Positions 1 to 45,100 of a stretch of 64,000 nt of DNA are shown one piece after another. The stretch is from Craspedostauros australis (taxonomy: Eukaryota). The DNA is taken from the NCBI GenBank assembly GCA_030167865.1, contig JALAGF010003286.1, positions 62,001 through 126,000 of the forward strand, read 5' to 3'. Both the position numbers and the translations under genes were made by a program. Position 1 is the stretch's first letter; each line of letters opens with the position of its first letter. The notes beneath the pieces are model-generated. The model saw only the letters and a program-made list of their open reading frames with translations. It did not search any database and was not told the origin of the DNA.

Positions 1-635
1 CGGCGATGTTTGCTCCTCGCCGCATCACCACGACCTCCACAACACATCGGGAACCAAAAAGTGAGGCGATCGGGACATCGGAGGACTCGTTGTTGTTGCG
101 GTTTTGTGAGGAACTATTTGCGTCCTTCGGTCTTGTGCCTTAAGTAAGTTGCTCAATACCACCGCGCAACATCACGCGAAAGATGCTGGATATGTCACTT
201 TGACATGTGTGATATGTCGTATACGACATGTAAATATCAAACTATGACATATCAATCACCTTTTCCGCTTCCGTCACAGACATACCATCCATGACAAGAC
301 TGGACAGGACAGAACAGAACAGTCTTGGCACAAAATGGGATGAATCCACAAGGAAATGCAAACAAGATGCTGGCAAACTGCTTGTAGTAGTGTACCAGTA
401 CCAGGCAGAGCACCACCGATCACTGTACCCGCAACCGCATCCGCAATCGCAACAGGGAGCAATGTTACAATAGATCTGAATGCAACACCATGGCTCCAAC
501 TCCCAATGGATCATGCGATGTGAGGCAATCAAACCCTTGATCTCATAATCTCGATTTCATCGACAGCAACAGCATCAGCAATCACTACAGTCGCAGTAAC
601 ACCACCAACACCAACAGCAAAAGCAACCATCAACG

Positions 636-3600
636 ATGAAGTTCTCTCTCACCGCTCTCACGTACTTGGCGTGCATGACTCGCATGCCGACATCCACCAT
701 GGCCATGATGGCAAATCCGGAACCTTTCGAAGTTGCCCAGCCTGATGGAACCAAGGTGACTGTCCGCCTCAACGGAGACGAACATTACCATGACATGACC
801 GACGTTGAGGGTACGTCTCTCTTCAGTGACCATGCAGGCATCGAATTGAGACAGTTCCTGCTTTCTGTCTTATCCATGGATCTTGGCATCATCATCCCAG
901 CAGGCGACCGTTCCTTTTTACTTGTTCTTCATATTGCCTCATTCCATTCATAAGTCTCACGCTCAAACCCGCCAACTGTGTTCCCTCGTCGCAAACACAC
1001 ATCTTGTTCGGTACCATTGCCGTCACCATCGTCACCATCGTCTTTTTCTGCGCATTAGACTATACCATCGTCAAGAACGTCGAAGGACAGTACGTCTACG
1101 CCAACCTTGATCCGCAAGGAGACATCGTTCCGACCGCACTCCTCGTCGGAAAGGCCAACCCAAAGGCCAGCCACATCCCTCGCCATGTCAAGCCTACGAA
1201 CGGACAAACGGAGAAGCACCGCCATGGACGTCGTGGAGGCACGCACGCGAACACGCACATGCGTGCGAAGGAGCATCGTGAGCATCACCCCGGTCGCCAT
1301 CTCACCGTCGATTCTCACGACGATCAGCACCACCGCCGCACTATGCAGACCACAGGCACGCTCAAGAACGTCGTTCTCCTCATTCGCTTCGCCGATCATG
1401 TCAACCGTGAGTTGCCAACAGCAGCGGGCATCTCGGAGCTCATGAACGCTGGAAAGGGTCAGTTCACGAACATCGTGCCCACCGGTTCAGTCAAGCATCA
1501 CTACCTGGAGTACTCGTACGACAAGCTCAACATCGAGTCGACCGTGTTCGACTGGGTGACTGTGTCGCGAACGGAACTCTTCGTGGCCAACGGATCGTCT
1601 GGTATCAACACCAGACTCCACGATGTCATCCGAGAGGCGTTGGGTGTGATCCAAACCCGCGATAACGTCAACTTCGGCAGCTTCGACGATGACAGCGATG
1701 GTTTCATCGATGGATTCACCGTCTTCCATTCCAGCTATTCCGCGGAGACCGGCCAAGTCGATCCCAACGGTTTGGAGTTCCCAGACCGAATCTGGTCCCA
1801 TCGTTGGAATCTCAACCAAGCCTGGGTGAGCTCCGACAACACAAGGGTGTCAGCCTACAACGTCAACCCTGCCCTTTGGAGCGTATCTGGCAGTGAGATC
1901 GGCCGCGTGGGCGTGGTGGCCCACGAACTCGGACATGTAAGTGATTGGAGCGCGCAAAAGACGAAGGCAACGATCGTGTTGAGAGGCATAGCTGGTTGCA
2001 TCTGATGACAACTCGTCGCGGTCGTTTCGATGCTAATGCGCTTTCATGCAACGATTTCTTACCCCGAAAGGGTGATTGCCCCAATCATCCATGTGTATGG
2101 TAATCGAGTGTATTCCTCACGCCGTCCCTTGCTACATCGGAACCGTAACATATCGCTTGACTTCGAATGCTGCCTACCACAATCCAACAACATCTCGCAT
2201 TCAACTATCTCCTTCGCTCCGTTATCATACTCGCACAGTTCATTGGACTTCCTGATCTGTACGACCCGGAACCCGCGGATGCACCCCCGGAAGACCGTGG
2301 AAGAGGAATCGGCATCTTTGGTCTTATGGCTGATGCTTGGGGAATCGACGGGTCTCAACGCTTCCCTCCCCACATGTCAGCATGGAGCAAGGTCCAGATG
2401 GGATGGGTGGACGCAATGAGGCCAATGGAAGGAATCAACTCCGTCGCCGCCACCCAAATCAAGACCAACCAGCCTCAGGTGTACAAGATCGGGGACGGTG
2501 AAGGTGGCTACCCACAGGGAGAGTGAGTACACGCTGCGCACAAAACACAGAAGACACAGAAAGCAAACAAGAGCCCGCAGAGCATCTTTCATAACCATCA
2601 TCGCAGCCGGTCAAGATGATGATGATGATGATGATGATGATCACGATCATGACGATGGTGTCGATTGCTCGGTGGCAGTTGGCCATCACCCCTCGATCCT
2701 CAATCTCATGTGCGCGCAGACTGATCTCACCAACTGCCTCTCCTTCAATGTCCATTCTCACACTCATCCTCGCTTCGCTTGTTCAATTCACGTTGTACCC
2801 TCTGCCTGCGCACAAATTCACGCACATGGACACAGATACCTGCTCATTGAGAATCGACAGCCCACCGGCACCGATAAGCTGCTGCCACAGGGAGGCATCT
2901 ACATTTGGCATATCGATGATCAGGCCAGCTTCACGAAGCAGGGATACCCCGGACAGAGCGGATGGCCAGCCAACGGAAACCACTACCGAGTCGCACTCCT
3001 CCCCGCCGATGGCAGATACGACCTCGAGCAGAACAGGAATGGAGGCGATTCCACCGATCCTTTCCATGCAGGTGGAGTGGCACAGTTGGGTCCATCTCAA
3101 GGCAACGCATTGACCGGCCCGTTCCCCAACACTGACCGGTACCAAGGTGGCAACGTCGCACGCACAGGCAACGTCATTTCCAACATCAGCGCGTCTGGCA
3201 CGACCATGACGTTCCGATGCACTGGCCCGGGATGTCAGGCGGCTGCAACTCAGCCAACCAGTTCACCAACGAAGGCGCCAACCAGTGCACCCACCAGCAA
3301 TCCAACGATGAAACCAACCCCGAGCAATGAAAATGATGGGACCGGAAACGGCGAGTGCAACAGCAACGAATCGCAGTTCGACCTGCGACTGGTCACAGAC
3401 AACTTCGGTGACGAGACCTCGTGGCAGATCATCAACGACGATGGCACAATTGTGAAGACAGGATCAGGATACGAGAACAACAAGGTCAATCTCATCAAGG
3501 AATGCATCCCCAAGAACGATTGCTACACGTTCGTCATCAACGATACTTGGGGAGATGGCATTTGCTGCGGACAGGGCATTGGCAGCTACACAGTTTCTCT

Positions 3601-4657
3601 CGACGGCACGTTTGTTGCAGTTGGCGGGGAATTTGGATTGACTGACTCATCCGGGCAGTTTGGAGCTGCATGTGGCGCCCCAGGCCCATCTCCAACCAGT
3701 TCACCCACGAAAGCGCCGACCGGGGCGCCCACAAAGCAACCGAGCAGACCACCGACCAAGTCGCCCACGCTGGCGCCAACGAAGGCACCAGTGGATGACG
3801 GCAATCCTAATGGATGCAGCTCCAGTCAACAGACTGTCCGCATCGAGCTCAGCACCGACAATTTCGGCGACGAGACGTCCTGGAAGATCCTCGACAACAA
3901 CGACGCGGAGCTGCACACGAACACACAGGCCTATCCAAACAACAGCAATGGGATTGTTGAAACGAGATGCATCCCGAAGGATGGGTGCTTCTCATTCCAA
4001 ATCAATGACAGCTTCGGCGATGGCATGTGCTGTGGAGAAGGCAGCGGCAGCTACCGTGTGACGGTGGATGGCAGCCAGGTTGCCGCCGGCGGCGAGTTCA
4101 CTTCGCAGGACAGCACCGTCTTTGGAAACCAATGCAACGAACCAACACCGCCACCCACGGAGGGGGATAACAACGCCAACTCCTGCGGCAATAATCAGGC
4201 CGAGCTCCGCGTCGTGATGCAAACGGACAACTTCGGCGACGAGACGTCTTGGTCTCTGGCCCGCAACAGTGACGGCACCACAATCCAGATTGGTGGGCCA
4301 TACCCCAACAACTCCCCAGTCGAAGAGAAGCGCTGCGTTCCAGCCAATGTATGCTACAAGTTCACAATGATGGATTCCTTCGGCGATGGCATGTGCTGCA
4401 ACGAAGGACAAGGCAGCTACGAGGTGTTCTGGGATAGCGTGAGCATGAACAAGGGCGGTGACTTTGGTGAGGATGAGAGCTTCTTGCTTGGCAACTGCAA
4501 CGCTGGCCGCCGTCGTGTGGCTGGCACAGATGAGGCAGCAGCAGCAGTTCGCACTGCAGACAGTGCAAGGCACGTGCGTCTCGGCAGAAATGACCGTCCA
4601 GCAGGCCAAGGCACGGATGGCCGCAGCCATCGCCGCCGCCATCACCGCCAAGTTTAA
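636..4657 (+). CDS. Secreted M6-family (immune inhibitor A-like) zinc metalloprotease with Pro/Thr linkers and three C-terminal Cys-rich repeat domains; exons 636-810, 1059-1936, 2239-2522, 2836-4657
   Basis: Signal peptide [14 protein letters not shown]; propeptide QPDGT...GDE; three GT-AG introns keep frame and give [14 protein letters not shown], GxGx[13 protein letters not shown] and EYLLIENRQ...GGIYIWHID; three copies of a [10 protein letters not shown]...DxxGDGxCC...GSY domain. Confidence 0.9.
2615..2641. repeat. (GAT)9 microsatellite in intron 3 of the M6 protease gene
   Basis: Perfect GAT run; explains the poly-Asp/poly-Met text in overlapping raw ORFs. Confidence 0.9.
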
Positions 4658-5425
4658 ATCTGCTGCCAATGACCATCGGCCATTCCCACTGAGAGTCGTG
4701 GAACCTACCCTCAAGAGTTCTGCATTAAGCATAACATCAGGATATCTAACATCATTAGCTTCGAAGTAGCTACATCAAGTACGGGAGCATCAGAAAGATA
4801 CGAGCTACGAGTAGGAAAGGGCATCGAGCCGGAACTGTGAGCGAGGCTGTTCATCGAATAGAACTACAGCGTAAACAAGGCTAGACTAAAAGTTGCGGTA
4901 AATTGTCTAATATACTTTTATATCCAAAACGACTTCATTCGTGGTCACAGCGTGACACCATGCGACACACGGGCCGAACAAAAAGGCTTTACTTTTTTGT
5001 CAAAGAGTCAATTCAGACAGAAAAAGAAGCCTCAATGACATTTGCATCCTGCTTTGCTTCCTGCTTGGTGCGGTGACGTCCCATCAGATGATACGACCAC
5101 GTCCCCTGGTACGTGGCTGAACTCAGACGCCCAAGTCCTCCTTCCTTCGTTCCTTGGCACCTTCGCAGACAGGATTCGCAAGAGCTGCAGAACAACTGAA
5201 GCGAAAGGTCCGCTCATCACATCTCTCGCCACCAGTGCCGTGCCGTGCCGTTCCGGTGGTGCTGGCCACCCCTCGTGGCTTTGTCGCCACAATTACTGTG
5301 GCTCGTAGGTAGAGACCGCGAGTAATCCAAAGATCGTCAGCAGCATTTGAGGCTTCTGATCACAAATCGAAAGATCGAACGTCCGCAAGTTGGAAGGACG
5401 ACAACAACATTAATACAATAGGAGA

Positions 5426-8400
5426 ATGGCGCACTTGGTCGATCCTTCCTCTGGTGATGGCGATTGCCAAAGCATCCCTGGGGAAGAGCTGGATCATAAT
5501 GGAAACGAGGCCGTCGTTGGATCCAACGCTGACAAAATAGCAGGTCAAGGTGACGCAACAGCAGTCTCGCATGTTTCTTCGACATCTCATCATGCCACTG
5601 CGAGCGATCTCGCGACCGCTGATACCAGCGACGCGAACTTTCGCTCGGACTCCACTTCGCTTGGACCAGCAACGCGTGATGGGAAGCTGCCACAAAGACA
5701 CATAGGTCCCTCCGTCCATGCCTCCGAGAAGACCACGAAAACGCTAACACCCGCTGGGGCTGGTGCGACGAGCAGCTACGGGCTTGCACAGAGCGGAAGC
5801 AAAGTTCCACCCACGAGGGCTACGATGAATGCCGTGTCTGCCATTGCCCCTGATGCCGATGCCGACGCTGATAAGCAGAAACATGCAATCAACAGTCCAG
5901 ATGCGAAGAAACGAAAGGACTCATCCAAGACGCGGGCAGGAATCGATGCTGACATCACCAATGGCACTCAACCCATCCGTCCCCAAAAAGGAAAGGTCAA
6001 TGAGCACGGCAACGACAACAGTGGTCAATCGACATCGCCACCTCTCGCGACTCCTAGTGCTCAAGATATCGCAGAGCGAGACGACGATGTTTCATTCGAC
6101 GCTGAGATTCACGACGAGAGACTCGTGGAGGAGACATCGCCAAGTGGCACCCATCTCACTCAACGCCGTGGCAGCACCGGCCATGCTGCAGCGCAGTCAC
6201 AAGCAGCTCTAGGTGCCTATGGCATGGATGTTATCCCATCGAACGCGATGGACAACGGCAATGCAGAAATCGCCATCATTGATGCCGACATCGAGGGCGG
6301 CCATGGCACGCTTACATCCGCACAAGTGCCCATCGCGGCTGACCTTGCCCCGGATACAGACAAGATTGTGCGTCAAGCCATCCAGCAAGATAGAGCCCGA
6401 CGAAATCTTGAGCAACCGGTCCTCGTCAATTCTCAGCCCATCGACGAGGCGCAAGCAAAACGCAATGCTCGCACCATGCGCTGTGGCTTGTTGGCCCTGT
6501 GTTTGATTGTCATCGCCGTCGCCGTATCTCTTGCGGTCACACTGACGCAAACTGATGGTGATGGTGGAAAGGCAAAGGAAGTTCCCATCATCATCGTCAA
6601 CAGAACGGAGGCTCCGACCATGAGTGCACAACCAACCGGCACGCCCACAGCTTCTCCTACCACGGCGCAGTCGATGTCGCCGAGCAGCCAGCCAAGTCAA
6701 CAACCAACCGTGTCCGACTACGGCGTGTTGGTCGAAAGGTTGGTTGCGGCGACGAACGGGAGCATGTCAGCGTTTGATGACATGTCGAGCCCTCAGTCCC
6801 GCGCAGCGCGATGGCTGTTGGAGGATGGATTCTTCGCAATTGGCGATGCCGACAGTGACGATGGAGTTGTCATCGTTGAGTTCTTCTCCTCTGCAACATC
6901 CCCAGGAGCAGATCGTGCAGACAATGCAGCAGCAGATGCAACTGTTGCTGGTCCTTCAAGTACTACGACGTTGGGCTCGGGCATCGATGATACCACCGCC
7001 GACAGCAGCAATTCCACCACGAACAGCACCACCGGCATCGATGGCCCTGCAATATTATCCATCGAATGGAATGAGACAACAACGAAACAAATCGTGGAGA
7101 GATATGCCTCCGCCGTATTTTACTACGCCACGGGCGGGGAAACGTGGGCGTCGCAGCTCAACTTTCTCACCAACAAATCAGTTTGTGACTGGGGAAGGGA
7201 CGGCTTTACTCAGATCGATACTCCCCATGGCCCAATTGTGTCACTTGACTTCTTTGGTATACGCTGCTCACCTGGTGGTCATCCCCACACGATCAATTTT
7301 CGCTGTAAGTTGCGGGTCTTGGGTCTGGCTTCACCGTTCGTATACGATGTGCGTTGCCTGCAATCTATTCATTGAAACTGTGCTTCACTGTGCGTTGCTC
7401 ATTGTGTTTGTGAAGTACTTGCGTACTTACCAACCGAATCATATCATACCGTACCGTACCATACCATGTCATACTCAACTTGGCGCACTGCAACACTTCT
7501 GAATTTCGAATCATTCCACCCACTTTGAACACGATAACAGCCTTCTACCAGGACATGCTGGTTGGCACATTACCCACGGAAATCGGTCTGCTCGAAGAGT
7601 TGATACATGTGGGATGTAAGTATGCAGCGAAAGACTGGCGCAGATCTTGGGAGAGTCGCTCCGTTGGAGCTTCGTTAGAGATTCACAACTTGTGCAATGT
7701 TCCATGCCATCCATCTCAACTTCAACCTTCTGCTGCCCGATTTTTCTGCATTCCTCTGCCGCAATTGCGTACCGCAGTCGACTCACAGGTGTGGATCCAC
7801 GGGACCATTCCAACAGAACTCGGCAATCTTAAGAAGCTCAAGGTGCTGTGGTTATGTAAGTTCCGAAATTCGAAGACGCATTGAGTGCTTGCCTGAAGAC
7901 ATGTGTGTGCTTTTCTATCCGACCTGGGACTTTGGATGTATGGTACTCGCATGCCAGTCAAAGATGCGTGCCGTCGCGCATTCAGTTTCATTGGAGCACT
8001 GTCCTCGTGCTCGCATGTTGGACCCTCGCCTGCTCGTACGTACCGTATCCATCCAATCTCAGAATCAAATCCCAACCTCACACGACAAAGGACACACACG
8101 CCATTTTACAAATATTTTTGCAGCGCTGGAACGACTGGAGGGAACCCTCCCCACAGAACTGGCGTCCTTGCCACTCCTCAGAGATCTAATACTCTGTAAG
8201 TTTGCGTGCAATACGACCAGCATGCTGCAAGCTTGGTTCGCGAACAAACTGACTTGGCATCTGACGCATTGATTGATCGCACGCGGAATATCCCACTTGC
8301 CACCGTTCTGGAGTCGTTGCCAACCATTCCACCCATGCTTCTCTCACATTCAAATGTTTGCATGTTTTGCCCTGTCACGGACGGAGATACCACGCATGCG

Positions 8401-10481
8401 CAGCCAACACCAAGTTATCTGGCAACGTCACATTTCATGAAGGCGACTTGGCATCGCTCGACAATCTTGAACTCGGTAAGCCATCAAAAGAGACCTCTCC
8501 CAAGAAACAGTAGCTGTTGATTCCTGGCAGGTCGAACGCGGCTTTTCGCTCGCCGATTGAAATGTTCCTCGTCGTCTCACCCGCTGCATCACCTGTTGCA
8601 CCACCTGTTGCACAACATCCCATTCTCCACATGTCATAATAGACGACACGAGGTGGGAATCAACTATCCCACAAGGCATCGGATACTTGACCCAGTTGAC
8701 AGAACTATCGATGAGTAAGTCAATGTGCGCATTGCGGTAATCTTGTCGAAGGCAGAATGCGAGTTGCGCCATTCTTTGGTGTGCAAGCAGTTTTGTGAAG
8801 GCGGTGGCAGAAGCATGCCCTTTCGGGCGTCCTTCAAGCCAGGGGCACTCCCAGCCTGTCTTCTCGCGGATAGATCCATCCACTCACTGAAATATGCATG
8901 TCCGTTTTAATCACTCCTTCTCTAACTTTCGTGGTGCCATCCAACATCGTTCGCATCACCTGAACCTCCAATTTGTATCTCTCTGGCAATCCGATTCAAC
9001 TCTCTTTGCACACAGGGAATACCGCGATGCAAGGGACCATTCCATCAGACATTGGAAGGCTGACATCTTTGAAGAAGCTGGTGCTGGGTGAGTGCCAAGT
9101 TCGCTGGAGTGGCGAGGACTGGACGCCATCCCTTGCCTCATGACGATGTGCTTTGCCTCAACCTTGTGCGTGGCACCACATGAAATGATCACAGAAAAAA
9201 CTCACACTTCCTTTTGCCGTACCATGTTTCCTCCCTTTCTCACAATAACTGCGTACCAATACGAATACTCCTGCCAATCGTATGCGATGCGCTGACTGGT
9301 GCATTCTATGCAACGTACTGCTCACATGTCATCGTGACTTGTGCAATACTCTAGATGGATGTCGCGTCAAAGGTCCAATTCCCACGGAAGTTGGGAACAT
9401 GACTTCACTGAGAGCATTGAGTTTTGGTAAGCATCGGTACAGCGTACCTCTCTACCATGAGAACTTGTCTCAGCTCGCTCGTGTTCGCCTATCAGATTTG
9501 GGAAGTTGGACCATGCGGTGCTTGCCGCAATGACACGACCCGTGCATACCTCCCATTGCGAGGCACACGAATCCAACTCACAATCTCATTCTCTCTATGT
9601 ACCTTCATCTGGCCACATCACATCCCACCCTTCCGTTGCAATCTCTCAACATCTCGTCGAGCAGAACACAGCCATTTTCTAGATGGGCCAATTCCAAGCG
9701 AGATTGGGCGGTTGGTCAAACTGACGCAATTGGACTTCGGTGAGTGCATACAATAGCGAATGGAAATGGGTTCTACTCGACCGGCTCTTCATCGTCTTCC
9801 TTGTGGGACTGATGTGTCTCACTTCTTATCTCTATCCTCGCCGTCAATCATGAACTCCCTTTGCTGAGCTACGTTACCACCCGTATCTACCCGATCCGCA
9901 TCCCTCTTCCTTCACTTTCAAGCTTGCACGAATATCAATGGTGTGATACCAGATACGCTCACGCAACTCACGAAACTGAAGGACTTCGATATCAGTAAGT
10001 GATCAGTGTCGCTGTTTCATCTTGTGGTCAGCGAGTGCATGTGCACGTGTATGCGTGGAAGATTGAGTGTCTCTTCTGTTTGTTGTTTCCCCTATTGATG
10101 ATGATGTCGATGTCTCGCCATTACACAGAGTATACTGATGCAATTCCTTCCATTTCGTCATTTCCACCGGACGCTTCCGCGGGCTTTCTCTCAATTTCCT
10201 CTCCAGGCGGCGCCACGCTGAACGGAAGGATACCGCAGGCCTTCTGTTCGCAACCCTCTGACCCCTTCGGGACATTTGCGAATCTGGAAATCACCAACTG
10301 CGATGTTGAATGGACTGGCTTCGGTGGATCCCTGATTTCCACATCAAGCATCAACTGCTCCCAGTTCGATGCATCTGATCCCACCATTGTGATGAATTGC
10401 TGCGAATGCTCTCCTGACCCCGACCATGTGGATATAGGAGTGCGAACTTGTGGCAACACTTTATCGTGCATCGAGGACTGA
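5426..10481 (+). CDS. Single-pass membrane LRR protein (no kinase), 11 exons: 5426-7304, 7541-7615, 7778-7855, 8124-8195, 8404-8475, 8643-8714, 9016-9087, 9355-9426, 9665-9739, 9923-9994, 10207-10481
   Basis: Low-complexity N-terminus, TM segment CGLLALCLIVIAVAVSLAVTL, P/T/S linker, cap domain (SPQSRAARWLL...ERYASAVFYYATGG..W...C.W), plant-type LRRs (GxIPxExGxL), Cys-rich C-cap. All 10 introns are GT-AG and phase 1. Confidence 0.88.
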
Positions 10482-10657
10482 AGGCTCTTGGATCATCTGG
10501 AGAGGAGGAGATTCCGTCACCAACTATCGAGGTATGCCAGAAAATAACGAAAAATAGTACTATCACTGATTTAAGACTTCCAATTCACACCATCACAACC
10601 CCCAACACACCTTCATCTGAGGACCGTACTGCCTTGACGTGAGCATCTCGCAGCACT

Positions 10658-11791
10658 TCACACTTGGGTGCCGGTCATGCCCATGATCATTCCGATCATT
10701 TTCGTGTTCTTGAACCACGGGAAGATCCATTGAGTTGTGAACCATCCAATGTTGAAGACTCCGTCATCTTTGCCGAGCGCGACGAAGTACCCACTTGGAG
10801 CGACCTCGTGCTTCTTCAGCTTGGCCTGAAGATCGGCATCCGCCTCAAGACTTGCGTCTGCGGTCGCTCCGCTCTTCACCTTTGACATGGTTGCGTCCAT
10901 GTTGGCAACGATGGTGTCAAGGTTGCCCTGGATCTGGGCGAACGAACTGTACAGCAAAGCGCAGCAGTCGCCGATCGCGAACACCGTTCCACCCGCTCCC
11001 TTGACGCGGAAGTAATCATCCACCTCAATCCAGCCCTTGTCGTTCAAGAACTTCGCGTCCATGAAGGAGTTGACGGGACGAAGTCCGGTGGTGTGCACCA
11101 CTTCGGATGCATCGAGCTCCACGCCGGAGTTCTTCGTGACGAATTTGCCGTCGTCGGACTCGATGACCTTGTCGTTCACGATGACCTTGACGCCCTTGGC
11201 TTCGAGCTTTCGCTGAATCCAATCACCGACTGAATCGTCCGTCTCCGCACACAAGTGTGGCCTGCTTTGCACCAGCGTGATCTTGTTCGTCTTGCCCAGT
11301 CGCTTCTTTTGCGTGTAGGCAATCTCGCCTGCCAACTCGCAGCCGATGAGGCCGCCGCCGACGATGAGGACGGACTCGGCATTGACCAGGCGATCGCCTT
11401 CCAGCTTGAGCTGCGCCTTGCGCTCTTCCATCGATGCGGGCGCCGTGGGTCCTCGACCGCATGCCGTCCACTGGGATCCGGCGCCGGTGGCCACCATGCA
11501 GAGGTCGAACTCGATGGTTTGGCCGTCGGCCAGATCGGCGCTTGTTGGCGTGAGCTTCGTGACGATGGAATGGATGAGTCGGATGTTGTGCTTGACCGCC
11601 CATGGCCGAAGCGGTTCCAAGGCAGTGTCTCGATCATCTTCATCGAACGGCGTGCGGAATGCGAATAGCACGAGCTCGAAGTAATTCTTGGGTTCCACAA
11701 GGATGATCTCCGTTGTCGCGTCCTTGGCTCGCAAACCCGCGGCGCACATGACGCCGGCGGCGCCGCCTCCGATGATGAGGATCTTGGTCAT
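10658..11791 (-). CDS. FAD-dependent pyridine nucleotide-disulfide oxidoreductase, AIFM2/FSP1/AMID-like
   Basis: Intronless 377 aa; ILIIGGGAAG (FAD), VATG, VLIVGGGLIGCELAGEI (NADH), VFAIGD. Confidence 0.85.
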   Translation of the reverse strand: MTKILIIGGGAAGVMCAAGLRAKDATTEIILVEPKNYFELVLFAFRTPFDEDDRDTALEPLRPWAVKHNIRLIHSIVTKLTPTSADLADGQTIEFDLCMVATGAGSQWTACGRGPTAPASMEERKAQLKLEGDRLVNAESVLIVGGGLIGCELAGEIAYTQKKRLGKTNKITLVQSRPHLCAETDDSVGDWIQRKLEAKGVKVIVNDKVIESDDGKFVTKNSGVELDASEVVHTTGLRPVNSFMDAKFLNDKGWIEVDDYFRVKGAGGTVFAIGDCCALLYSSFAQIQGNLDTIVANMDATMSKVKSGATADASLEADADLQAKLKKHEVAPSGYFVALGKDDGVFNIGWFTTQWIFPWFKNTKMIGMIMGMTGTQV

Positions 11792-11875
11792 GATGCTGGT
11801 GTCTTCTTTGGTTCCTTTTTATGATATTATGATATGATCGTAAAGCAGAGAAGAGGTGGATTTGTGCTGTGCTGT

Positions 11876-28495: not shown

Positions 28496-29490
28496 GGTGA
28501 TGGTCGTGTTGTGCTTATACTTGTGTGTGTCGGAGCAGGTGTGTGTATGGATGTGCGTGACAAGTTGAGATGAACAGAATTATGATAGAAGTGCGAACAG
28601 ACAGCCACTAAAAGAGAAGTTGGTTGGAGCGATGGAGTGTTCGTGCGAGTGTTGTGGCTCTGCTGTTTGGTCGACCAAACAGAACGAGGAGTTGCGAAGG
28701 GATGCTATACCGTGCAAGGTGGTGGTGTGTGCTCTATTCGTGTGCTTCAATGTTTGCTTGCCTCTTGGGAGTTGTGCGGAAGCGGAGCGATCCCAAGCCC
28801 TCAACCGCCTTTCATCTTCAACCATAGCCAACCAGCGACATCACGGCCCCGCCACCATCTCCCCTTCACATGGGTGGCCACCGCTGCCTTCGTCACCGCC
28901 GCTGCCGTTTCGTTTTTGGGTGGATGCGCTGCCATCGTCATGGTCGTTCTTTCCACGTCAAATACCCCTGCACCCGAACCGCGCGAGTACCTGTTCTTGT
29001 CGGCAGAGTTCGGGTTTTGGCCATCAATCAACAAGATCGCTTGGTGCGCCTGCCGCCAATCAATCTGTTCACTCACCTCCCAGAACGCCCTCCACGCTGC
29101 TATTAGTCGAACGGGTCAAGTCCAGTCACCAATGTTTGTCTCTTCCAATCGCGAACCACAAAAAGACGGCTGATGTCAAACCCGAACGCTGCCTTCACCA
29201 CGAGCGAGTGCGAGCAGATCGCGGAATCCCATCAACAGAGGGAGAGAGAGGCAACTGACGCCAATGCCAATCGCAAAAGATGTGGCGTCCCATCGCCGCA
29301 ACCATGTTGGTTGCAGATTCGGGTGGCTGACCGACCATCGCATCTTCTTGCCATCAAACAATCAATCGACAGAAGAGGCATCCATTGATCATACTCCTCG
29401 CACATACTCGAGTACAACAACAATCATAGGTAAAGAGCCCGAGAGATCCAGATTGATAACATTGGCGGAGCCGCACATTTCACATTTGCA

Positions 29491-32400
29491 ATGGCGGATA
29501 ACAGCAGCAATGACGGCCATCACGATGTTGATGACGTCAAGATTCATGACAGCAATGACGACAATGACGACAATGACAGGAATGCCAACAGCGACAACGC
29601 AGGTGATGAAAACGTCCATGATCGCAGCATCGAAGACATCGAATCGAATGGCAACAATGGCGACGTAGATGATGACAACGCCCACGATCCCGGCATCGAA
29701 GACAACGACTCAAATGGCGACAACGTGGATGGACACGGTGAAGCCAGAAGTGGAGACATTGAAGAAGACATCAGTGACGACATCCCACCACAGGCAGCTC
29801 CTTCGACCGTGGACGATGAGGCACCGCAAGAACAGCCAACAGAAGAACAAGAAGTGAAGGAGGAAGAAGAGGATCGGCAGGAACAAGAACTGCAGGAGCA
29901 CCAACAACCGCTCCCACCCGCACTGCCGAATCCGTACGCACCAGGAGAGACAGGTGATGAGTCTGGCAGCCGCATGACCGCGGACTACGGCACCAGCGAC
30001 GACGAGGCGTACGATTTCTCCTACAGTGTCGACGAAGTGGAGAGCATCGACGAGCTATTGCAGGCACCGCCGTCTCCACAACGGGCCGATGCGAAGCGCG
30101 AGAAGAAGTCGTACGATGATACCATCAGCGTCGATAACGACGACGACGATGATGATCGCAAAACTGGCACCATGGGATCCAGTCCTGTCCCGGTACCGAC
30201 GTCCACACCAGCCAGCAACGTAGCATCCCTAACTGCTGCGGCGCGCGCTGAAACTGCAAAGACCGGGGCACCAGAGAAGAAGCAGACTTCGGCCTGGCAG
30301 GTCTTCTTGGGTGGTTTCGTGGCCGGCGTGCTCGCGCTGGGCATCGTCCTTGCTGCCGTCTTTAGTGACAGTGACGACAGTGCCGATGAGGCCACAAATG
30401 CCATCGCACAATCAACGCAGCCGCCCTCTAAAATTCCAGAAGCAGCGAGCAACGACACATCACTGTTACCCTCCATGCAGCCGGCTGATAGCCCCACCGA
30501 AACCTCACCTCCTAGTGCTGCCGTCGACGATCCAGAAGCTCAATTCTACGACCACTTTGAAACCCTTATGGGGCCCCTCATTCGTAGCCCTAGCACACCG
30601 CACAAGGCGGCTGCAGATTGGATCTTGATGGACGATCCACGCATCACGGCAACATCCACCAGTCGGATCCAACTACCATCAGTATCCGCATCCGCATCAG
30701 CCAAGCAACTCGATTTCAGCGATCCACTGTCCATTCCGCCGGAACAGCTCGAGCAGCGATACCTCATGGCCTTTTTCTATTTTGCATTCAGCGATACCGG
30801 ACTTGCGCCGTGGGAATTCTGCTCACCACCATCACAGCTCTCTAATACGTCCACGCGATGCGAATACTTTGAATATCGCGACGGACCAAACGTGAAAGTT
30901 GAAGCCAGTCGATGGCTGACAGCAGACAGCGAGTGCCAATGGGCCGGAGTGGTATGCAACGAAGCATTGCAAGTGGGATCCGTCTCTCTGCGTAAGTACT
31001 TATGTATCCTTGATGTGCTTCTGCGACATCACCATACAAATGCATCTTTCTCGTTGTGTTGTTCCTTCTTTGCACCGTCAGACTCACGCTTGAACTCGTT
31101 CTCGCACTTACGTACAATCGTGCGGCAACTTGCCGAACCACCCGCTGATCACGCGCCATGCCGATCCCATCCTTGTCTCTGATTTTGCATCTGCTCCTGC
31201 CTACCTACCTCTATGCTTGCCTTCTCCTTTGCTTCATCGCAGACGACTTCGCGTTGGTCGGTAGCCTTGCATCGGAGATCATGCTCCTCCCAACACTCGC
31301 ACATCTCAGCTTGACAGCCAGCAAACTTGGCGGCACGATCCCTCTCGAATACTCCAAATTGGTATCCCTCAACTTGACCAACAACGAGGTGACTGGCGAA
31401 ATCCCAGCCGCCTTCTTCACTGTGGCATCATCCATGACGGATTTCGACCTAGCCAACAACACCCTCGTTGGCCCGATCCCCCCACAAATTGGTAGCGCCG
31501 GTGCCCTCCAAATATTTAACGTCGCCAACAACTCCCTAACTTCTTTCCTTCCAACCGAAATCGATCAGCTCCAATCTCTCAAAGTCTTCAACGTTGCCAA
31601 CAACGGTTTGGTCGGATCCATCCCTGCCATTTTCGGCAGTTTCGATTGGACTGCCAACTTGGTAGAGCTAGTGCTGTCGGGAAATGGACTTGAGGGGGAA
31701 CTTCCATCCCTGAACGGTCTCGCCAGGGCGTTGGAGCGTTTCGAGGTGGCTGACAACGGACTGGATGGCCGGATCCCGATCAGCCTAGGAAGCCTCACCC
31801 ATTTGGTCGTGGCGCGCTTGGACAACAATCTTCTCACCGGGCCCATCCCAACTGAACTTGGTGTTTTCAAGCGCTTGGAACGGTTGTGGCTCAACGACAA
31901 TCCGATCTCTTTCACCATTCCATCTGAACTGGGGTGGTTGTCGTCATTGAAAGAGGCCCGATTCGGCAACACTCTCATCTCCGGCAGTGTGCCCACAGAG
32001 CTCTGCAGCCTGGATCTCACCACGCTATCTGCTGACTGCTTCCGCGTCAACTGTACCTGCTGCACGGTCTGCACGGTGGATCCTCGCGTGTCCGACATCC
32101 GCAATGGCCTTGCGAAACTGCTGGGTGGCGAAGACAAGATATCCAATGACAATCAGCCGTTGGGACGTGCCATGGCCTGGATCATCAGTCAGGATCCGGC
32201 TCAGCTGTTGTTCTCGTCTCCGAACTTCGTCCAGCGTTTCGTGTTGGCAGCTTTCTACTTTCAAATGTCCCAACTTGGCTCGAAGCCGTGGCGCAGTTGC
32301 AACCCCAACTTTTCCGACTACAACGACGAAACCTGCGACTTTGAGCAGATCACTGAAGATTCGGCAACGTCGACAGCCAGCAAAAGATGGCTGTCGTCAG

Positions 32401-34147
32401 CGCCGGAAACCACCTGGAGCGGCGTTAACCACAACGCATCGCAGTCCTTGAAAGTGGAACGGCTCTACCTCCGTGAGTCCTTTTCACTCTTGTGCGTCTT
32501 CTACTCTGTGTGCGACTATTTGCACTCTGCGAACCTTTTCAATCCCATTCTGTTCTGTTACGGTAGCGCTTCCAGCTGGCTTGGTGGTGCATGCTGTGCG
32601 TTTCATTTTACATTCGTTTGCGTGAAAACGAAGGAGACAGCGATCGACTTCCCACATCATCATCTACCAAGTGCTCACATCATCTCTCATCCTCGCTGCT
32701 GCTACTGCGACTGCTATTGCCTCCTAATACATGTCAATTTCTTTCCACACTCTGCTCACCCACACCCTGGCGCACAGCCGGACAAGAGCTGCTCGGTCAT
32801 CTCCCGGATGAGTTGACGCTCCTCAGCGATTTAACGCATCTGCTGCTCCCGCATAATTCCATCCAAGGTACCTTGCCTCCTGCATACGGCGACAGCAGCA
32901 AATTCCCTCTGGTCGCATTAGACCTCCGTGACAACATGATCATTGGAACCCGTGAGTCGAAGCATGTCCTGCCGATGATTGCTGGTTGCTGGTTGCAGCT
33001 CATGGTGCAGCTCATGGTGCAAACACAACTACTCTACCATACGCTATTGCACATTTTCGCATGCTCTTTGGAATACTATTCGTTCGATGTGTGACATCAA
33101 CCACTACTCGGATCTGCTCACTAACATTTCCTACTCTGATCATCACCTTTACGCGTAACGTGTCCTCATTTTTCGTACACCATCTCTCTCACAACCTGAA
33201 CAGTTGCGGACGGCTTCTTCGCCAATTCGCAGACCTTGGAGAAGCTGAATCTTGGAGTCAACATGCTTGTGGGCCGCTTGCCGAGCAGTATCTTCACAAC
33301 GCAAAGTTTGCAGTCTCTCAATCTCACTCACAACAATCTGACTGATGAGGTACCTGTTGAGATTTCGTATCTTGCATCGCTGACGTCGCTGGATTTATCT
33401 TACAACTTGTGGCGCGGGGAAGTTCCAACTGAACTTGGAGTGCTGAGCAGGCTGGAACATCTCATTGTCGGCGGCTACAGAGGAATCACAGGGCAACTTC
33501 CGACGGAGATCGGAAAGCTGACACGCTTGCGGTTGTTGGATATCTCCAACACGAAAATGAGGGGGAAGCTACCAGCCGAGATCGGGAACCTGTTACGCTT
33601 GCAATCTCTGGATGTGTCCAACTCAGAGATGACGGAACAAGTGCCGTCAGAGTACGGCCTGCTCTCCAATCTTCAGTTTCTGAACATGGCGCAGAACAAG
33701 CTCGCAGGGTCCATTCCCACAACCTTGGGTCTCTTGACGGAGTTGGTGGATCTGCGGCTCAATGGCAACAACCTCATCGGTCCGATACCAACAGAGTTTG
33801 GCCTACTGACAGATCTAGAAGTGCTGCACATGCAAGCAAACGAGCTCAACGGGATAATTGGGGCAGAGCTCGGCTTGATGACCAGCCTGATGGATTTGCG
33901 GTTGAATCACAACAATTTCAATGGCACATTGCCAATATCTTTCGTCCTGCTCGGGGACTTGAGAGTTGCGTTATTCCATGCCAATTCCATTGTCGGTCCG
34001 ATCCCAACCGGCGTCTGTTCAATCCTGATATTGGAGCAGTTCATGACGGACTGTAATTCACAACCACCCACCGTGGATTGCAGTTGCTGCACGCAATGCT
34101 GCGTCCCGCAGGTATTTGACTCGTGTCCAGTGGACTTTGATTTCTGA
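29491..34147 (+). CDS. Single-pass membrane LRR protein with two tandem cap+LRR modules; exons 29491-30991, 31243-32472, 32778-32951, 33204-34147
   Basis: Acidic N-terminus, TM VFLGGFVAGVLALGIVLAAVF, cap domain twice (AADWI..D...QRYLMAFFY / AMAWI..D...QRFVLAAFY), more than 20 LRRs, Cys-rich C-caps (CTCCTVC, CSCCTQC); three phase-1 GT-AG introns. Confidence 0.88.
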
Positions 34148-42151: not shown

Positions 42152-45100
42152 TCACTGCAATCTCTGGAGAAGGTCAACAAGGCTCTCCGGTGACATGGCC
42201 TTGGAACGCTTGATGATTCGTTCGGGGATCCCTTGTCCCAATTCAATGTACAGATCCTTGAGTGTCTTCTTGTCCTGCGAATCGAAGAGTGTCACGAATT
42301 CCTGCAGCGTGCATCTCGCGTCCGTCAGCTTGTTCAGGGTGTGGTATCCGAACAGCTTGACGGTGTGGTCGTAATCCAGCCGTTTGATCGTGAACGTATC
42401 CTCCATCCACCTCGACGATCTGCGGACGTTTGACTTCTTCTTGCCATCCACGGGTTGCTGGTTGATGAGGATGGCTTTTGTGATGGTTGCACCCGCATTC
42501 TGTTGGAACAGATCGCCCAGGAAATCTGTCAAGATGGGAGAGTTGATGTCAACACCTGCCATGTCCACAACGATGAGATTCTTGCGACCAGCCAAGGCCC
42601 GTTGCGATCGTTCCAACAGCTTGGCCTCATCAACGACCTCATCCACGCCGGTGGCCTGTTGTAGATCTGCCTTCGACTCGCCATCAGATGCAATGCTGGA
42701 AGATGTGGCGCGAGCAAGGCGGAATCGAAGGAGATCCTTGATGTCCACCCAAGGATCGTTGTAGTAGGTGTCGGGCGAGTCTTCGCCACTCAGCCAAATC
42801 ACGTTGCCCAGCGTCATATCTTTGCGTCTCCAAAGCATGTATCTACAGGCCGCGGCCACGAAGGAGCTCTTGCCAATGCCAGATCGTTTGGCTTGCACCT
42901 TGACGACGTCGTTGTTCTTGATCGCGCGGATCAAGTCGTACAGCTCCTTCTCCCGCCCGACGAAGTGATTGACCTCGACCGGGATTCGCGGGTCGTTCAA
43001 ACCGCGGATCGAAACCTGGAACTTCCATGCTGGGCACTCAGCTGTGAAGAAGACGTCTGAGTTGCTGTCCCTCGAGAGCAAATGGTACTTCGACGCTTCC
43101 TGCTGGGCCCCTTCCAACGTCCCTGTGGCAACTTCATTCGTTGCCACCTGGAATGCTTCTTTCACCGTCTTGCCAAGTGCCAACTCGCGATAAAACCGCC
43201 CGGCGAATTTGATGGAGCTGCCGTCGTGCAGACCGTAATCCTGCTTGCAACATATCACGTGCGGCACGCCAGCCTGGAAGATGGCCTCAGCGCATTGCTG
43301 CGAGTTGCAAGCGGACAAGAACACCAGATCGAGACGAGCGTTGTTCTCTCGGCCCAATGTCTTCTCGATCTCTGCCTTGAACTTGGGGACGTAGATCTTG
43401 TGGATCCCACCGTTGCCATCCTCGAGCGCGAGGTACTCCGGATCGCCGTGGCATGAGAGATGCAGTATCCTGCCCCTCCCTTCGCTCAAGAATTCGCAGA
43501 TGCGGTTCCACGTCGCTGGTTCGTACGAGATCTCGATGTCGCCGGGAATATCGGACTGCGCGAGCGCATTGTCGAGAGCCTCTCGTTCGCCCTTGCAGTT
43601 CAGCAACGGAAGCTGCTCCATCTCCTTGCTCTCTTCGTTGCGATACACGAGTGGCTGGGCTTGGAACACGAACAGACGATCGAACTTGCCAGTGTAGTTG
43701 AGACTTTCCAGCACGATGTTCCAATCACGAGGACGACGATGCGGGTCCTTGTCCAACAACGAATTGATAAGAGTCCTGGGCCATCCCGGCTTGACGAGCG
43801 ATAGCTTCTTCTCCTTCGTGTCATCTGTCCAATCGATGAGCTGCTGCATCTCGTCATGTTCGATGTTGTCTTGAGTATCAACGTTGAATAACGTCCTCCC
43901 AGTACACAGTTGATACAGCAGAACTCCAAAGCTCCACATATCCTGTGAGAGGGATGCGCGCAGAACAGTGCCGCGATCGATTCGTCCCACCGCAGCTTCC
44001 GGAGGTATGCAGCCTGAGCTCGTGTTCTTGTCAAACGACGACTCGCGTTCTTTGATGGATACCGCGGTGTCGAGATCAATGACCGCGAAGTCATGCCCGT
44101 CCCTTGCGACGAAGTTTCTACAATCGAAACGGTACATATATGGTGGTTGTGACAATGTCCGTGTATAGTAGATTATCAGAGTGTTGCGGCGGTTGATTGA
44201 GTTGATCAAGATATAAATGAAACGAAGAGACAGTGAGTGCGCACGTACGGTCACAAGTGGATTATTCTGTCATAAGTTGCCGCAACAAGTAGAGTCTGCT
44301 CCAATCGCCAACACCAAGAGCAACCCCCGACAACCATAACTCATGGAGCAGAGTACTTGCACTCTCTCTATCCGCACTCGCGCTTGCACGAGAGGCGAGT
44401 CAAATGAATCCATGCACCGGCGGCTTCATGTTCGCCACATGCCACAACACGCAGCTGCAGTCCAAGCTTTACGTACCGTGCCTTGACGTCTCCATGCATG
44501 ATGCCTTTGGTTTCATTCAAGTACTTGAGGGACAGCGCGACGTTCTTCGCAATTGCCATGGCAGCGGGTGCATCCTTGCCGGCGATGTTTTGGGTGTCGA
44601 TGAGTTTGTGCAAATCGCCGCCGTACCCGTACTCCATGACGATGAGATGGTCGAGGGTGGCGGTGGCCTTCGTCATTTCGCCGATCCCACCAGTGCCGGG
44701 TGCCTTCAGATGAATCTTGGGATACGTCGAAAGGTGATCCGCAATGTCGATGCCGAACTTCGTGACCGCCACATGCGAGGTGTCAAAGTCGCAGCCACCC
44801 GATTTGGAATACATGGCCTTGATGGGGACGACGTACTTGCCGTCCATGCCGATGCGGCGCCTTACTTCCTGCTGGAAGACATCCTGCGATGTCATGAACT
44901 TGAGCACGACGCGCGTTTCCTTGCCTTTGCGTAATTCCGTCGCAACGATGATGATGCAGGATTCGGACACGTGCAACGGATCCTCGTCTTCTTCGATGCG
45001 ATAAGTCTCCAAGAAACGTCCAAACACCTGTCCCCACCTGCTAAGATCTTCCGACGAGGTTGATATGCGAGATCGCCTCGCAACCTCCGTCAGCGTGCGC

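What the first reader, a model, noticed from the sequence alone, without database searches (positions are those of the whole stretch)
7541..9994. LRR receptor gene built as one repeat per symmetric micro-exon
Seen: nine consecutive exons of 75, 78, 72, 72, 72, 72, 72, 75 and 72 nt, each encoding one LRR, flanked by phase-1 GT-AG introns (162-301 nt) at the same position after LxxLxL. Any exon could be skipped, duplicated or swapped without frameshift. Known: one-LRR-per-exon layouts occur in plant ERECTA-family receptors and Ectocarpus LRR-ROCO genes, where exon shuffling was proposed to diversify recognition; diatom genes are usually intron-poor. Inference: a possible combinatorial diversification system for a diatom surface receptor.
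Basis: partly seen in the sequence, partly recalled or inferred. Interest (0 to 1): 0.75.

Follow-up and report, generated by a model that had tools for sequence, protein, structure and literature searches.

The report
Diatom LRR gene, one repeat per exon
A real, expressed diatom-type gene for a membrane-anchored leucine-rich-repeat surface protein has each repeat on its own small in-frame exon, an unusual layout for an intron-poor genome, but nothing found here shows that the exons are mixed or skipped to create diversity.

Summary
Nine exons of 75, 78, 72, 72, 72, 72, 72, 75 and 72 nt (7541-9994) each encode one 24-26-residue LRR. They lie between ten GT..AG phase-1 introns of 162-301 nt. 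All ten splice joints appear exactly in transcript-like contigs of one public run.

The full gene (5426-10481) encodes a 937-aa protein. It has an N-terminal tail without a known domain, one transmembrane helix, an N-cap, 10 LRRs and a Cys-rich C-cap. It is a distant member (24-31% identity) of a large family whose named members come from the diatoms Seminavis robusta and Cylindrotheca fusiformis.

The layout is rare in that family. None of 13 informative metagenome loci, and neither module of a paralog in this window, has an intron between every repeat. What the family does share is a phase-1 intron in the same register right after the N-cap.

The diversification idea gained no support:
- No LRR pseudo-exons lie in the introns.
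- Exons and introns are no more alike than chance.
- Repeats are not homogenised.

One-LRR-per-exon genes are already known in plants, brown algae, ciliates and vertebrates, all described as phase 2. This is a phase-1 case in a different register. It is most likely an old structural relic that is spliced constitutively.

The parts
5426..7304 (+). Exon 1. ATG at 5426, frame open from 5414. It encodes an N-terminal tail of about 350 aa with no Pfam domain, the TM helix, a Ser/Thr/Pro-rich linker and the N-cap. It ends with 1 nt of a split codon.
   Evidence: Transcript contigs cover only 6871-7304 of it, so the start codon and the N-terminal tail are inferred from the open frame.
6479..6547 (+). 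Single transmembrane segment (about aa 352-374). Basic residues stand before it and acidic residues after it, which predicts N-in/C-out (type II) topology.
   Evidence: Kyte-Doolittle maximum 2.99, the only window above 1.6. The family consensus also has a basic stretch before its hydrophobic segment.
6773..7303 (+). N-cap module (P..A..W...D...QRY..A.FYYA..G..W...C.W...G..C...LxL) that precedes the LRRs.
   Evidence: Aligned with the two N-caps of the paralog. The profile finds 1262 representative proteins at E<=0.001.
7305..7540 (+). Intron 1 (236 nt, GT..AG, phase 1).
   Evidence: joint 7304>7541.
7541..7615 (+). Exon 2, 75 nt, LRR 1 (irregular).
7778..7855 (+). Exon 3, 78 nt, LRR 2. The intron before it is 7616-7777: 162 nt, a multiple of 3, with no in-frame stop.
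8124..8195 (+). Exon 4, 72 nt, LRR 3. The intron before it is 7856-8123 (268 nt).
8404..8475 (+). Exon 5, 72 nt, LRR 4 (lacks the IP motif). The intron before it is 8196-8403 (208 nt). It is spliced in one contig and retained in two low-depth contigs.
8643..8714 (+). Exon 6, 72 nt, LRR 5. The intron before it is 8476-8642 (167 nt).
9016..9087 (+). Exon 7, 72 nt, LRR 6. The intron before it is 8715-9015 (301 nt).
9355..9426 (+). Exon 8, 72 nt, LRR 7. The intron before it is 9088-9354 (267 nt).
9665..9739 (+). Exon 9, 75 nt, LRR 8. The intron before it is 9427-9664 (238 nt). Relative to the 11-repeat homologs, one 24-aa repeat is missing at this point.
9923..9994 (+). Exon 10, 72 nt, LRR 9. The intron before it is 9740-9922 (183 nt, AAG acceptor).
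10207..10481 (+). Last exon: LRR 10, the Cys-rich C-cap and the stop codon. The intron before it is 9995-10206 (212 nt).
   Evidence: It aligns with the family C-cap.
29434..34147 (+). Paralog used as an internal control. It is a two-module LRR gene of the same architecture, with arrays of 11 and 14 repeats that contain no per-repeat introns. Its introns are 30992-31242 and 32473-32777 (both LxL + 1 nt, phase 1, right after an N-cap) and 32952-33203 (a different register).
   Evidence: This model rests on sequence only; no reads were laid here.

Best explanation
This is an ordinary, constitutively spliced gene. It encodes a type II single-pass membrane protein with an extracellular solenoid of 10 plant-type (24-residue) LRRs between an N-cap and a Cys-rich C-cap. 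It is a divergent member of the large diatom LRR family that is expanded in Seminavis robusta. Its likely job is to bind a ligand or a surface at the cell exterior (inferred).

The one-repeat-per-exon layout is an old evolutionary by-product, not a working diversity generator. The family carries a conserved phase-1 intron right after the 'LxL' of the N-cap. In this gene's lineage, an intron in that same register and phase came to stand after every repeat. The route may have been duplication of an exon-plus-intron unit or spread of the intron to the equivalent site of each repeat, and the evidence does not say which. The copies have since diverged beyond recognition.

Shown: the gene model, the splicing of all ten introns, family membership, the rarity of the layout, and the shared N-cap intron register. 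Inferred: topology, surface-binding function, constitutive splicing, and the route by which the introns arose.
For: - Gene model and phases.
- Splicing: 10 of 10 joints are seen in the contigs of run X1, and no other joint is listed.
- Membrane anchor: one hydrophobic segment, with positive charges on its N side.
- Family size: the N-cap profile finds 1262 representative proteins at E<=0.001 and 158 at E<=1e-10.
- Family match: the spliced protein matches these hits from N-cap to C-cap (BLASTP E down to 1.6e-29, 24-31% identity) and aligns colinearly with 23 single-module members whose tails are 293-334 aa, i.e. 11 LRRs plus C-cap.
- Family identity: of the 10 hits looked up, the 4 named ones come from Seminavis robusta (3) and Cylindrotheca fusiformis (1), and homologs carry Pfam LRR families but no kinase.
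- Age: exon pairs are 51% identical against 49 +/- 5% for shuffles, and introns share nothing better than E=0.017 over 16-30 nt.
- No homogenisation: mean repeat-to-repeat identity is 0.297, 17th of 24 proteins compared.
- No relic exons: no LRR-like piece lies in any intron on either strand.
- Strong donors: the ten are GTAAGT (6), GTGAGT (2) and GTAAGC (2).
- Rarity: 0 of 13 informative metagenome loci and 0 of 2 paralog modules have an intron between every repeat.
- Shared register: the same register and phase (LxL + 1 nt) occurs after the N-cap in this gene, in both paralog modules and in L002, L003 and L005.
Against: - Contigs drop rare variants, and only one run was available, so exon skipping is not excluded.
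- The run's RNA nature is the tool's guess. The exon-only cover and the ten GT..AG joints fit RNA.
- No whole genome was available, so paralogs with the same layout, swapped exons or strain differences could not be looked for.
- The protein has one repeat fewer (10) than the common 11, and the paralog modules have 11 and 14. Repeat number does therefore change in this family.
- Only 1 of our 10 repeats best matches its colinear position in the family. Eight family members tested leave-one-out scored 4-9 of 11. This could mean a rebuilt or scrambled array, but the intron-free paralog module scores only 3 of 11, so plain divergence may explain it.
- If the introns spread by unit duplication, the near-standard repeat count would be a coincidence.
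- Some intron-free metagenome contigs may be metatranscripts, which weakens the count of intron-free relatives.
Confidence: 0.68

Rival explanations
1. Working cassette system. The symmetric phase-1 exons are used, by regulated or stochastic exon skipping or by frequent genomic exon gain, loss or exchange with paralogs, to vary the length and surface of the LRR solenoid. This would be as proposed for Ectocarpus ROCO genes and shown for human NLRP3.
For: - Every exon from 2 to 10 can be removed or doubled without a frameshift, and each equals one structural repeat.
- The layout is an outlier in an intron-poor setting. Neighbouring genes sit in long single ORFs with near-complete Pfam domains, and diatoms average 1.8-2.6 exons per gene (PMC5485032 table).
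- Repeat number varies in the family: 10, 11 and 14.
- Precedents exist: PMC3341825 (section 15 read), PMC11378527 (passages) and PMC6642158 (abstract and passages).
- A contig 90-95% alike shares the end of exon 10 and then diverges at 10001. It could be a paralog or allele sharing an exon.
Against: - No skipping joint is listed among the contigs.
- No intronic LRR pseudo-exons were found.
- No nucleotide similarity above chance exists among exons or among introns, so there has been no recent duplication or conversion.
- The repeats are not homogenised.
- All splice donors are strong.
- The only other LRR gene in the window has intron-free arrays.
- 0 of 13 related loci share the layout.
Confidence: 0.12
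2. Ancestral retention. The founder of the family had an intron after every repeat, having been built by exon duplication as proposed for plant LRR kinases. Most members lost the array introns, for instance by cDNA-mediated loss that spares the 5'-most intron. This gene is a relic that kept them all.
For: - The 5'-most (N-cap) intron in the same register and phase survives in many members, and 79 of 150 family representatives end within 25 aa of the N-cap, as expected if an unspliced ORF call stops in an intron there.
- The array is colinear with the family's.
- The age of the exons and introns fits an old origin.
Against: - The sporadic introns seen inside arrays of relatives are not in this register. 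These are the second intron of L005, both introns of L012 and the paralog's third intron: 0 of 4 match. The first introns of L010, L013 and L014 lie in yet another register.
- No second gene with the layout was found (0 of 13 loci, 0 of 2 modules).
Confidence: 0.2

Closest known systems
Ectocarpus and other brown-algal LRR exon arrays (ROCO GTPases, some LRR kinases, LRR-only loci). Sources: Zambounis et al. 2012, PMC3341825; Teng et al. 2024, PMC11378527.
   Same: A stramenopile gene with one 24-residue LRR per 72-nt symmetric exon, where skipping or duplicating an exon keeps the frame.
   Different: - Brown-algal exons are phase 2 (PMC11378527, passage). Their registers are GxxPxxLxxxxxLxxLxLxxNxLx (type I) or xLxxNxLxxxxxGxxxxxxxLxxL (type II) (PMC3341825, section 15). 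Here the phase is 1 and the cut falls after LxxLxxLxL.
- The brown-algal hallmarks of shuffling are intronic pseudo-exons on both strands and recombined recent paralogs. Pseudo-exons are absent here, and recent paralogs could not be examined.
- There is no ROC-COR or kinase domain here.
- The protein is a type II membrane protein with an N-cap and a C-cap.
Plant LRR receptor kinases with 72-nt LRR exons. Rice LRR kinases: PMC3050792, passages.
   Same: Plant-type 24-residue LRRs (LxGxIP motif), short exons each encoding one repeat, and an intron position conserved along the array.
   Different: - The rice introns are phase 2 and split the first Leu of xxLxLxx.
- Those proteins are type I, with a signal peptide, a C-terminal TM and a kinase.
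- Here there is no kinase, and the anchor is N-terminal to the LRRs.
Diatom LRR family, such as Seminavis robusta 'leucine Rich Repeat' proteins CAB9506035.1 and CAB9503640.1. LRR families are noted as tandem-expanded in PMC7335047 (passages).
   Same: The same architecture (tail, TM, N-cap, about 11 LRRs, Cys-rich C-cap), a colinear alignment, and the phase-1 intron after the N-cap.
   Different: - Relatives examined have intron-free or nearly intron-free arrays.
- The two S. robusta single-module mRNA spans exceed their coding lengths by only about 350 and 180 nt (computed from the coordinates in the names).
- This gene has 10 repeats, a degenerate C-cap motif and only 24-31% identity.
Tetrahymena 90-bp LRR exon arrays (PMC6564038, passages), and vertebrate NLR and gonadotropin-receptor LRR exons (PMC6642158, passages; PMC11378527, passage on the LH receptor).
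   Same: Exon borders at a fixed place in each repeat, which is a precondition for in-frame alternative splicing or shuffling.
   Different: - The repeat types and exon sizes differ (90 bp in Tetrahymena; 28-29-aa repeats in NLRs).
- Tetrahymena and the LH receptor are phase 2.
- Those are massive families with clear recent expansion. Here a single old gene is seen.

Membership tests
Diatom N-cap/LRR/C-cap membrane protein family (S. robusta 'leucine Rich Repeat' type) | N-cap module before the LRRs (A..W...D, QRY..A.FY, C.W.GV.C, LxL) | tested here: met
   - Aligned with two further modules of the window.
- BLASTP of the spliced protein covers the N-cap of family members, for example query 541-921 against P0117 427-833, E=4e-27.
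- The C.W.GV.C part is degenerate here.
Diatom N-cap/LRR/C-cap membrane protein family (S. robusta 'leucine Rich Repeat' type) | Array of about 11 plant-type 24-residue LRRs | tested here: met
   - There are 10 repeats, colinear with the 11 of 23 single-module members, with one repeat missing.
- Single exons alone give no Pfam LRR hit (0 of 9 LRR exons, nor the last exon). The model spans exon borders and single repeats are too short.
- The spliced protein could not be sent to Pfam.
Diatom N-cap/LRR/C-cap membrane protein family (S. robusta 'leucine Rich Repeat' type) | Cys-rich C-cap (L.ADC ... C.CC..CC...C) | tested here: inconclusive
   The last exon aligns there and has C...CCEC...C...C, but it lacks the second CC pair and carries an insertion. 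It gives no Pfam hit.
Diatom N-cap/LRR/C-cap membrane protein family (S. robusta 'leucine Rich Repeat' type) | Hydrophobic anchor N-terminal to the ectodomain, preceded by basic residues | tested here: met
   for this gene. The consensus of six members shows RNRRFRLY followed by a hydrophobic stretch.
Ectocarpus-type shuffled LRR exon arrays | Each LRR on one symmetric 72-nt exon | tested here: met
   Six exons are 72 nt, two are 75 and one is 78. All are flanked by phase-1 introns.
Ectocarpus-type shuffled LRR exon arrays | Same exon register and phase (type I or II, phase 2) | tested here: not met
   Here the phase is 1 and the cut falls after LxxLxxLxL. The comparison is with PMC3341825 section 15 and a PMC11378527 passage.
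Ectocarpus-type shuffled LRR exon arrays | Non-coding LRR exons in introns, on either strand | tested here: not met
   An HMM of the nine exons was run against all six-frame pieces of the window. Inside 7305-10206 it hit only the nine exons, plus one piece at E=680.
Ectocarpus-type shuffled LRR exon arrays | Recently duplicated paralogs that differ in LRR exon number and order; exchange between loci | not testable with these tools
   - No genome is held.
- Word-based protein searches found no close relative.
- The first metagenome scan found none.
Ectocarpus-type shuffled LRR exon arrays | Several splice variants with different LRR exon sets | not testable with these tools
   Only assembled contigs of one run could be laid, and contigs drop rare forms.
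Plant LRR receptor kinases / receptor-like proteins | Signal peptide, LRRs, C-terminal TM, with or without a kinase (type I) | tested here: not met
   The TM lies N-terminal to the LRRs and nothing follows the C-cap. No kinase is found in exon 1 or in homologs.

The most novel reading that the evidence does not exclude
This would be an independently evolved LRR exon-cassette gene in a diatom, in phase 1 and in a register different from every described phase-2 array. Under this reading, the family's N-cap intron was copied to the equivalent site of every repeat, for example by reverse splicing or by unit duplication. The cell would then use the resulting symmetric exons, through exon skipping or repeat-number change, to vary a surface recognition protein. 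That would give unicellular algae a way to diversify receptors.
Probability: 0.1. Interest if true: 0.7.

Novelty: new member of a known kind. Interest (0 to 1): 0.33.

Why it matters
LRR surface proteins are among the most expanded and fastest-changing gene families in diatoms, and their ligands are unknown. A family member whose repeats are all separate in-frame exons is a natural test case. It can show whether exon modularity of LRRs, which has arisen repeatedly in plants, brown algae, ciliates, vertebrates and apparently fungi, is only a footprint of how repeat arrays grow or is used to vary binding surfaces. It also bears on how an intron can come to occupy the same site in every repeat of a gene in an otherwise intron-poor genome. 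On present evidence it adds a phase-1 example from a new lineage and no new mechanism.

Tried and rejected
- Whole genome: none is held. No genome-wide search for paralogs or shuffled exons was possible.
- RNA evidence: no listed holder is on record as RNA. The single run listed is labelled 'RNA?' by guess. No exon-skipping joint was listed in its contigs, but contigs cannot show absence.
- Word-based protein searches with exon 1 (residues 400-626) and with the last exon (longer proteins) gave no hit at E<=0.001.
- The first metagenome scan, with part of exon 1, gave 215 pattern matches but no relative. A 22-sequence family alignment was too diverse for the scan. A 6-sequence alignment worked, but it samples a subfamily far from this gene.
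- Pfam: exon 1 gave 0 families. The nine single LRR exons and the last exon gave no LRR family.
- Rfam over 5000-11000 gave no match at E<=0.1, so no known RNA gene lies in the introns.
- Introner-like or repeated introns: rejected. All-against-all BLASTN of the ten introns gave only 8-30-nt matches, best E=0.017.
- Positional orthology of repeats: inconclusive. This gene scored 1 of 10, family members 4-9 of 11 (8 tested of 18 clean ones), and the intron-free paralog module 3 of 11.
- The loose end at 10001 (30 letters of its consensus) was not found in the window with up to 3 mismatches. It remains unexplained.
- Literature: four searches of the held library looked for a diatom one-LRR-per-exon report. 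The term sets were: diatom + leucine-rich repeat + receptor + intron; diatom + LRR + exon shuffling; diatom + LRR + alternative splicing + exon skipping; each LRR + separate exon + receptor. None described such a gene. Subscription journals are not covered.


Full report
**1. The observation**

The region holds ten strong donor sites (GTAAGT, GTGAGT or GTAAGC) at 7305, 7616, 7856, 8196, 8476, 8715, 9088, 9427, 9740 and 9995. The exons are 7541-7615 (75 nt), 7778-7855 (78), 8124-8195 (72), 8404-8475 (72), 8643-8714 (72), 9016-9087 (72), 9355-9426 (72), 9665-9739 (75) and 9923-9994 (72).

With a first exon 5426-7304 and a last exon 10207-10481, the joined frame is open for 937 codons. All ten introns (236, 162, 268, 208, 167, 301, 267, 238, 183 and 212 nt) are phase 1.

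Each small exon encodes one repeat of the form xxxxLxGxIPxxIGxLxxLxxLxL. For eight of the ten introns the split codon directly follows the last hydrophobic residue of LxxLxxLxL. Introns 1 and 2 sit one codon later and one codon earlier, beside irregular first repeats.

**2. Transcript evidence**

One public run holds 32% of the sampled words of 6900-10500. That is close to the exonic share of the stretch, about 38% by my count. Its contigs, laid on 5000-10700, show all ten joints at exactly these coordinates, each GT..AG, and no other joint. Bins lying wholly in introns 3 and 6 have no depth.

The run is labelled RNA only by guess, but exon-only cover with ten canonical joints is what RNA gives. 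Two low-depth contigs (8186-8345 and 8328-8433) run through intron 4, as unspliced precursor or DNA would. Cover starts at 6871, so the start codon and the N-terminal 480 residues rest on the open frame alone (open from 5414).

Exons of 72-78 nt are short but are not micro-exons in the usual sense (recalled usage).

**3. What the protein is**

Exon 1 gives about 350 residues without any Pfam family. Then comes the only strongly hydrophobic segment (about residues 352-374), with basic residues before it and acidic ones after it. A Ser/Thr/Pro-rich stretch with N-x-S/T sites follows, and then an N-cap module. Ten LRRs and a Cys-rich tail complete the protein. The predicted topology is N-in/C-out, with the LRR domain outside; this is inferred.

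A second gene in the window (29434-34147) has the same plan twice over: an acidic tail, a TM, then two modules of N-cap, LRRs and C-cap.

A profile of the three N-caps found 1262 representative proteins at E<=0.001 and 158 at E<=1e-10 among 1.84 billion. In scripts, the spliced protein matches these from N-cap to C-cap (BLASTP E down to 1.6e-29 at 24-31% identity; phmmer).

It also aligns colinearly with 23 single-module members whose length after the N-cap is 293-334 residues. That length corresponds to 11 LRRs plus a C-cap of the form L.ADC...C.CC..CC...C. This gene lacks exactly one 24-residue repeat near exon 9.

Of the 10 hits looked up, the 4 that carry a name are Seminavis robusta 'leucine Rich Repeat' proteins (CAB9506035.1, CAB9503640.1 and CAB9505242.1, the last auto-named as a receptor-like kinase) and a Cylindrotheca fusiformis protein. 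Homologs carry Pfam LRR families and no kinase.

Atlas look-alikes of the N-cap are clusters that are mostly Bacillariophyta (scores 0.89 and 0.87, a lead only). A neighbouring CLN3 gene is nearest to an oomycete cluster. The window is thus stramenopile and very probably diatom, and the protein belongs to the diatom LRR family noted as tandem-expanded in S. robusta (PMC7335047, passages seen).

**4. How unusual the layout is**

In the window, genes mostly sit in long single ORFs that hold nearly whole Pfam domains: CLN3 2-393 of 395, Pyr_redox_2 2-278 of 291, and Peptidase_C1 47-219 of 220. Published diatom genomes average 1.8-2.6 exons per gene (table in PMC5485032).

The paralog has three introns. 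Two stand right after an N-cap, at LxL + 1 nt in phase 1, which is the same register as here. One lies elsewhere. Its arrays of 11 and 14 repeats are uninterrupted.

A metagenome scan with a six-member family alignment returned 14 loci.
- One locus (L009) is cut at the N-cap.
- Six loci (L001, L004, L006, L007, L008, L011) are continuous. Some of these may be metatranscripts.
- Seven loci (L002, L003, L005, L010, L012, L013, L014) have one or two introns. L013 and L014 are nearly the same.
- None has an intron between every repeat.

The intron after the N-cap in L002, L003 and L005 is again at LxL + 1 nt in phase 1. L010, L013 and L014 have theirs inside the first repeat. The array introns of L005 and L012 are in other registers.

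Of the 150 best family representatives, 79 end within 25 residues of the N-cap. That is what an ORF caller produces when it runs into an intron there (inference).

So the register is a family trait at one place, and this gene alone, among those seen, has it after every repeat.

**5. Tests of the diversification idea**

The paper on Ectocarpus bases its shuffling claim on non-coding LRR exons inside introns on both strands, and on recent paralogs with rearranged arrays (PMC3341825, section 15 read). The results here were as follows.
- A profile of the nine exons, run over all six-frame pieces of the window, hits only the nine exons within the gene.
- Exon pairs are 51% identical at the nucleotide level, against 49 +/- 5% for shuffled exons.
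- The ten introns share only chance-level matches.
- The repeats of this protein are no more alike than those of its relatives: mean identity 0.297, 17th of 24.
- Donor sites are uniformly strong.
- No known RNA family lies in the introns.

All of this fits an old, stable arrangement.

Some things cut the other way. Repeat number differs in the family (10, 11, 14). Only the last of our ten repeats best matches its colinear position in position-specific profiles, whereas eight family members tested leave-one-out scored 4-9 of 11. However, the intron-free paralog module reaches only 3 of 11, so divergence alone may explain the poor match. One contig, 90-95% alike, follows exon 10 to 10001 and then continues with 255 unlike letters that are not in the window. 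Alternative isoforms, strain differences and genome-wide exon sharing could not be tested.

**6. How the layout arose**

Three routes fit parts of the data.
- (a) Tandem duplication of an exon-plus-intron unit seeded by the N-cap intron. This explains the register and the uniqueness of the layout, but not the near-standard repeat count or the lack of internal similarity.
- (b) Spread of the N-cap intron to the equivalent site of each repeat. This explains the register, the uniqueness and the colinearity, but has no direct support, since the introns are unrelated now.
- (c) Ancestral per-repeat introns kept here and lost elsewhere. This explains colinearity and the survival of the 5'-most intron. 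It predicts leftover array introns in this register in relatives, and 0 of the 4 seen are.

I favour a lineage-specific, ancient origin from the family's N-cap intron (routes a or b) over retention (route c). The question remains open.

**7. Comparison with what is known**

One LRR per short symmetric exon is documented in several groups:
- rice LRR kinases: 72 nt, phase 2, splitting the first Leu of xxLxLxx (PMC3050792, passages);
- brown-algal ROCO genes: 72 nt, phase 2, with alternative splicing (PMC3341825; PMC11378527, passages);
- Tetrahymena: 90 bp, phase 2 (PMC6564038, passages);
- vertebrate NLRs and gonadotropin receptors (PMC6642158; PMC11378527, passages).

Earlier notes of this scan report two fungal cases, unchecked by me. 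Four library searches found no such report for diatoms.

The present gene differs in phase (1), in register (after LxxLxxLxL), in protein architecture (type II anchor, N-cap and C-cap, no kinase or GTPase) and in host lineage. This points to an independent origin of the same kind of layout.

**8. Verdict**

The layout is rare for its family and host. The proposed diversification role is possible in principle but unsupported by every test that could be run. I rate it a new member of a known kind, of moderate-to-low interest, worth one long-read cDNA experiment and a genome-wide exon scan.

Noticed in passing
window 29434-34147 (+): A second LRR gene of the same family has two N-cap/LRR/C-cap modules in one 1301-aa model. 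Its arrays of 11 and 14 repeats carry no per-repeat introns. Its introns are 30992-31242, 32473-32777 and 32952-33203, and the 174-nt exon 32778-32951 is also symmetric (phase 1 on both sides).
   Followed up: partly
window 8186-8433: Two low-depth contigs of run X1 run unspliced through intron 4, while another contig shows it spliced. This is intron retention, precursor RNA or DNA carry-over. Read-through hits a stop after 25 codons.
   Followed up: no
window 9995-10001: One contig (90-95% alike) follows exon 10 seven bases into intron 10 and then continues for 255 letters unlike the stretch. The first 30 of those letters do not occur in the window. It may be a paralog, an allele or an assembly chimera.
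   Followed up: partly
window 7616-7777: Intron 2 is 162 nt (54 codons) with no in-frame stop, so retaining it would keep the reading frame. It is spliced in the contigs.
   Followed up: no
window 10481-11818: A 2095-nt contig spans the 3' end of the LRR gene and runs on beyond 10700, towards the convergent Pyr_redox_2 (NDH-2-like) ORF on the minus strand (10658-11818). The 3' ends of the two genes appear to abut or overlap.
   Followed up: no
window 42152-48324 (-): Two adjacent long ORFs carry signalling and defence-like domains. One (42152-44269) has Pkinase + CHAT + nSTAND1. The other (44368-48324) has ankyrin repeats and a kinase fragment.
   Followed up: no
window 58683-63998 (+): An open frame of 1772 aa, running off the window end, carries endonuclease/exonuclease/phosphatase and reverse-transcriptase domains. 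It is a LINE-like retroelement in a GC-rich stretch (59-64% GC).
   Followed up: no
window 830-2005 (+): An ORF matches the catalytic domain of Peptidase_M6 (immune inhibitor A). As recalled, that family is mostly bacterial, so a transfer into this eukaryote is possible.
   Followed up: no
P0001-P0150 (family representatives): 79 of the 150 predicted proteins stop within 25 residues after the N-cap. This suggests that many database entries of this family are ORF calls truncated at the conserved N-cap intron.
   Followed up: partly
L005 1531-1615 and L012 2479-2621: Two unrelated metagenome loci have a phase-1 intron in the same other register, after LxxL of a repeat. This hints at a second recurrent intron site in the family.
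   Followed up: no
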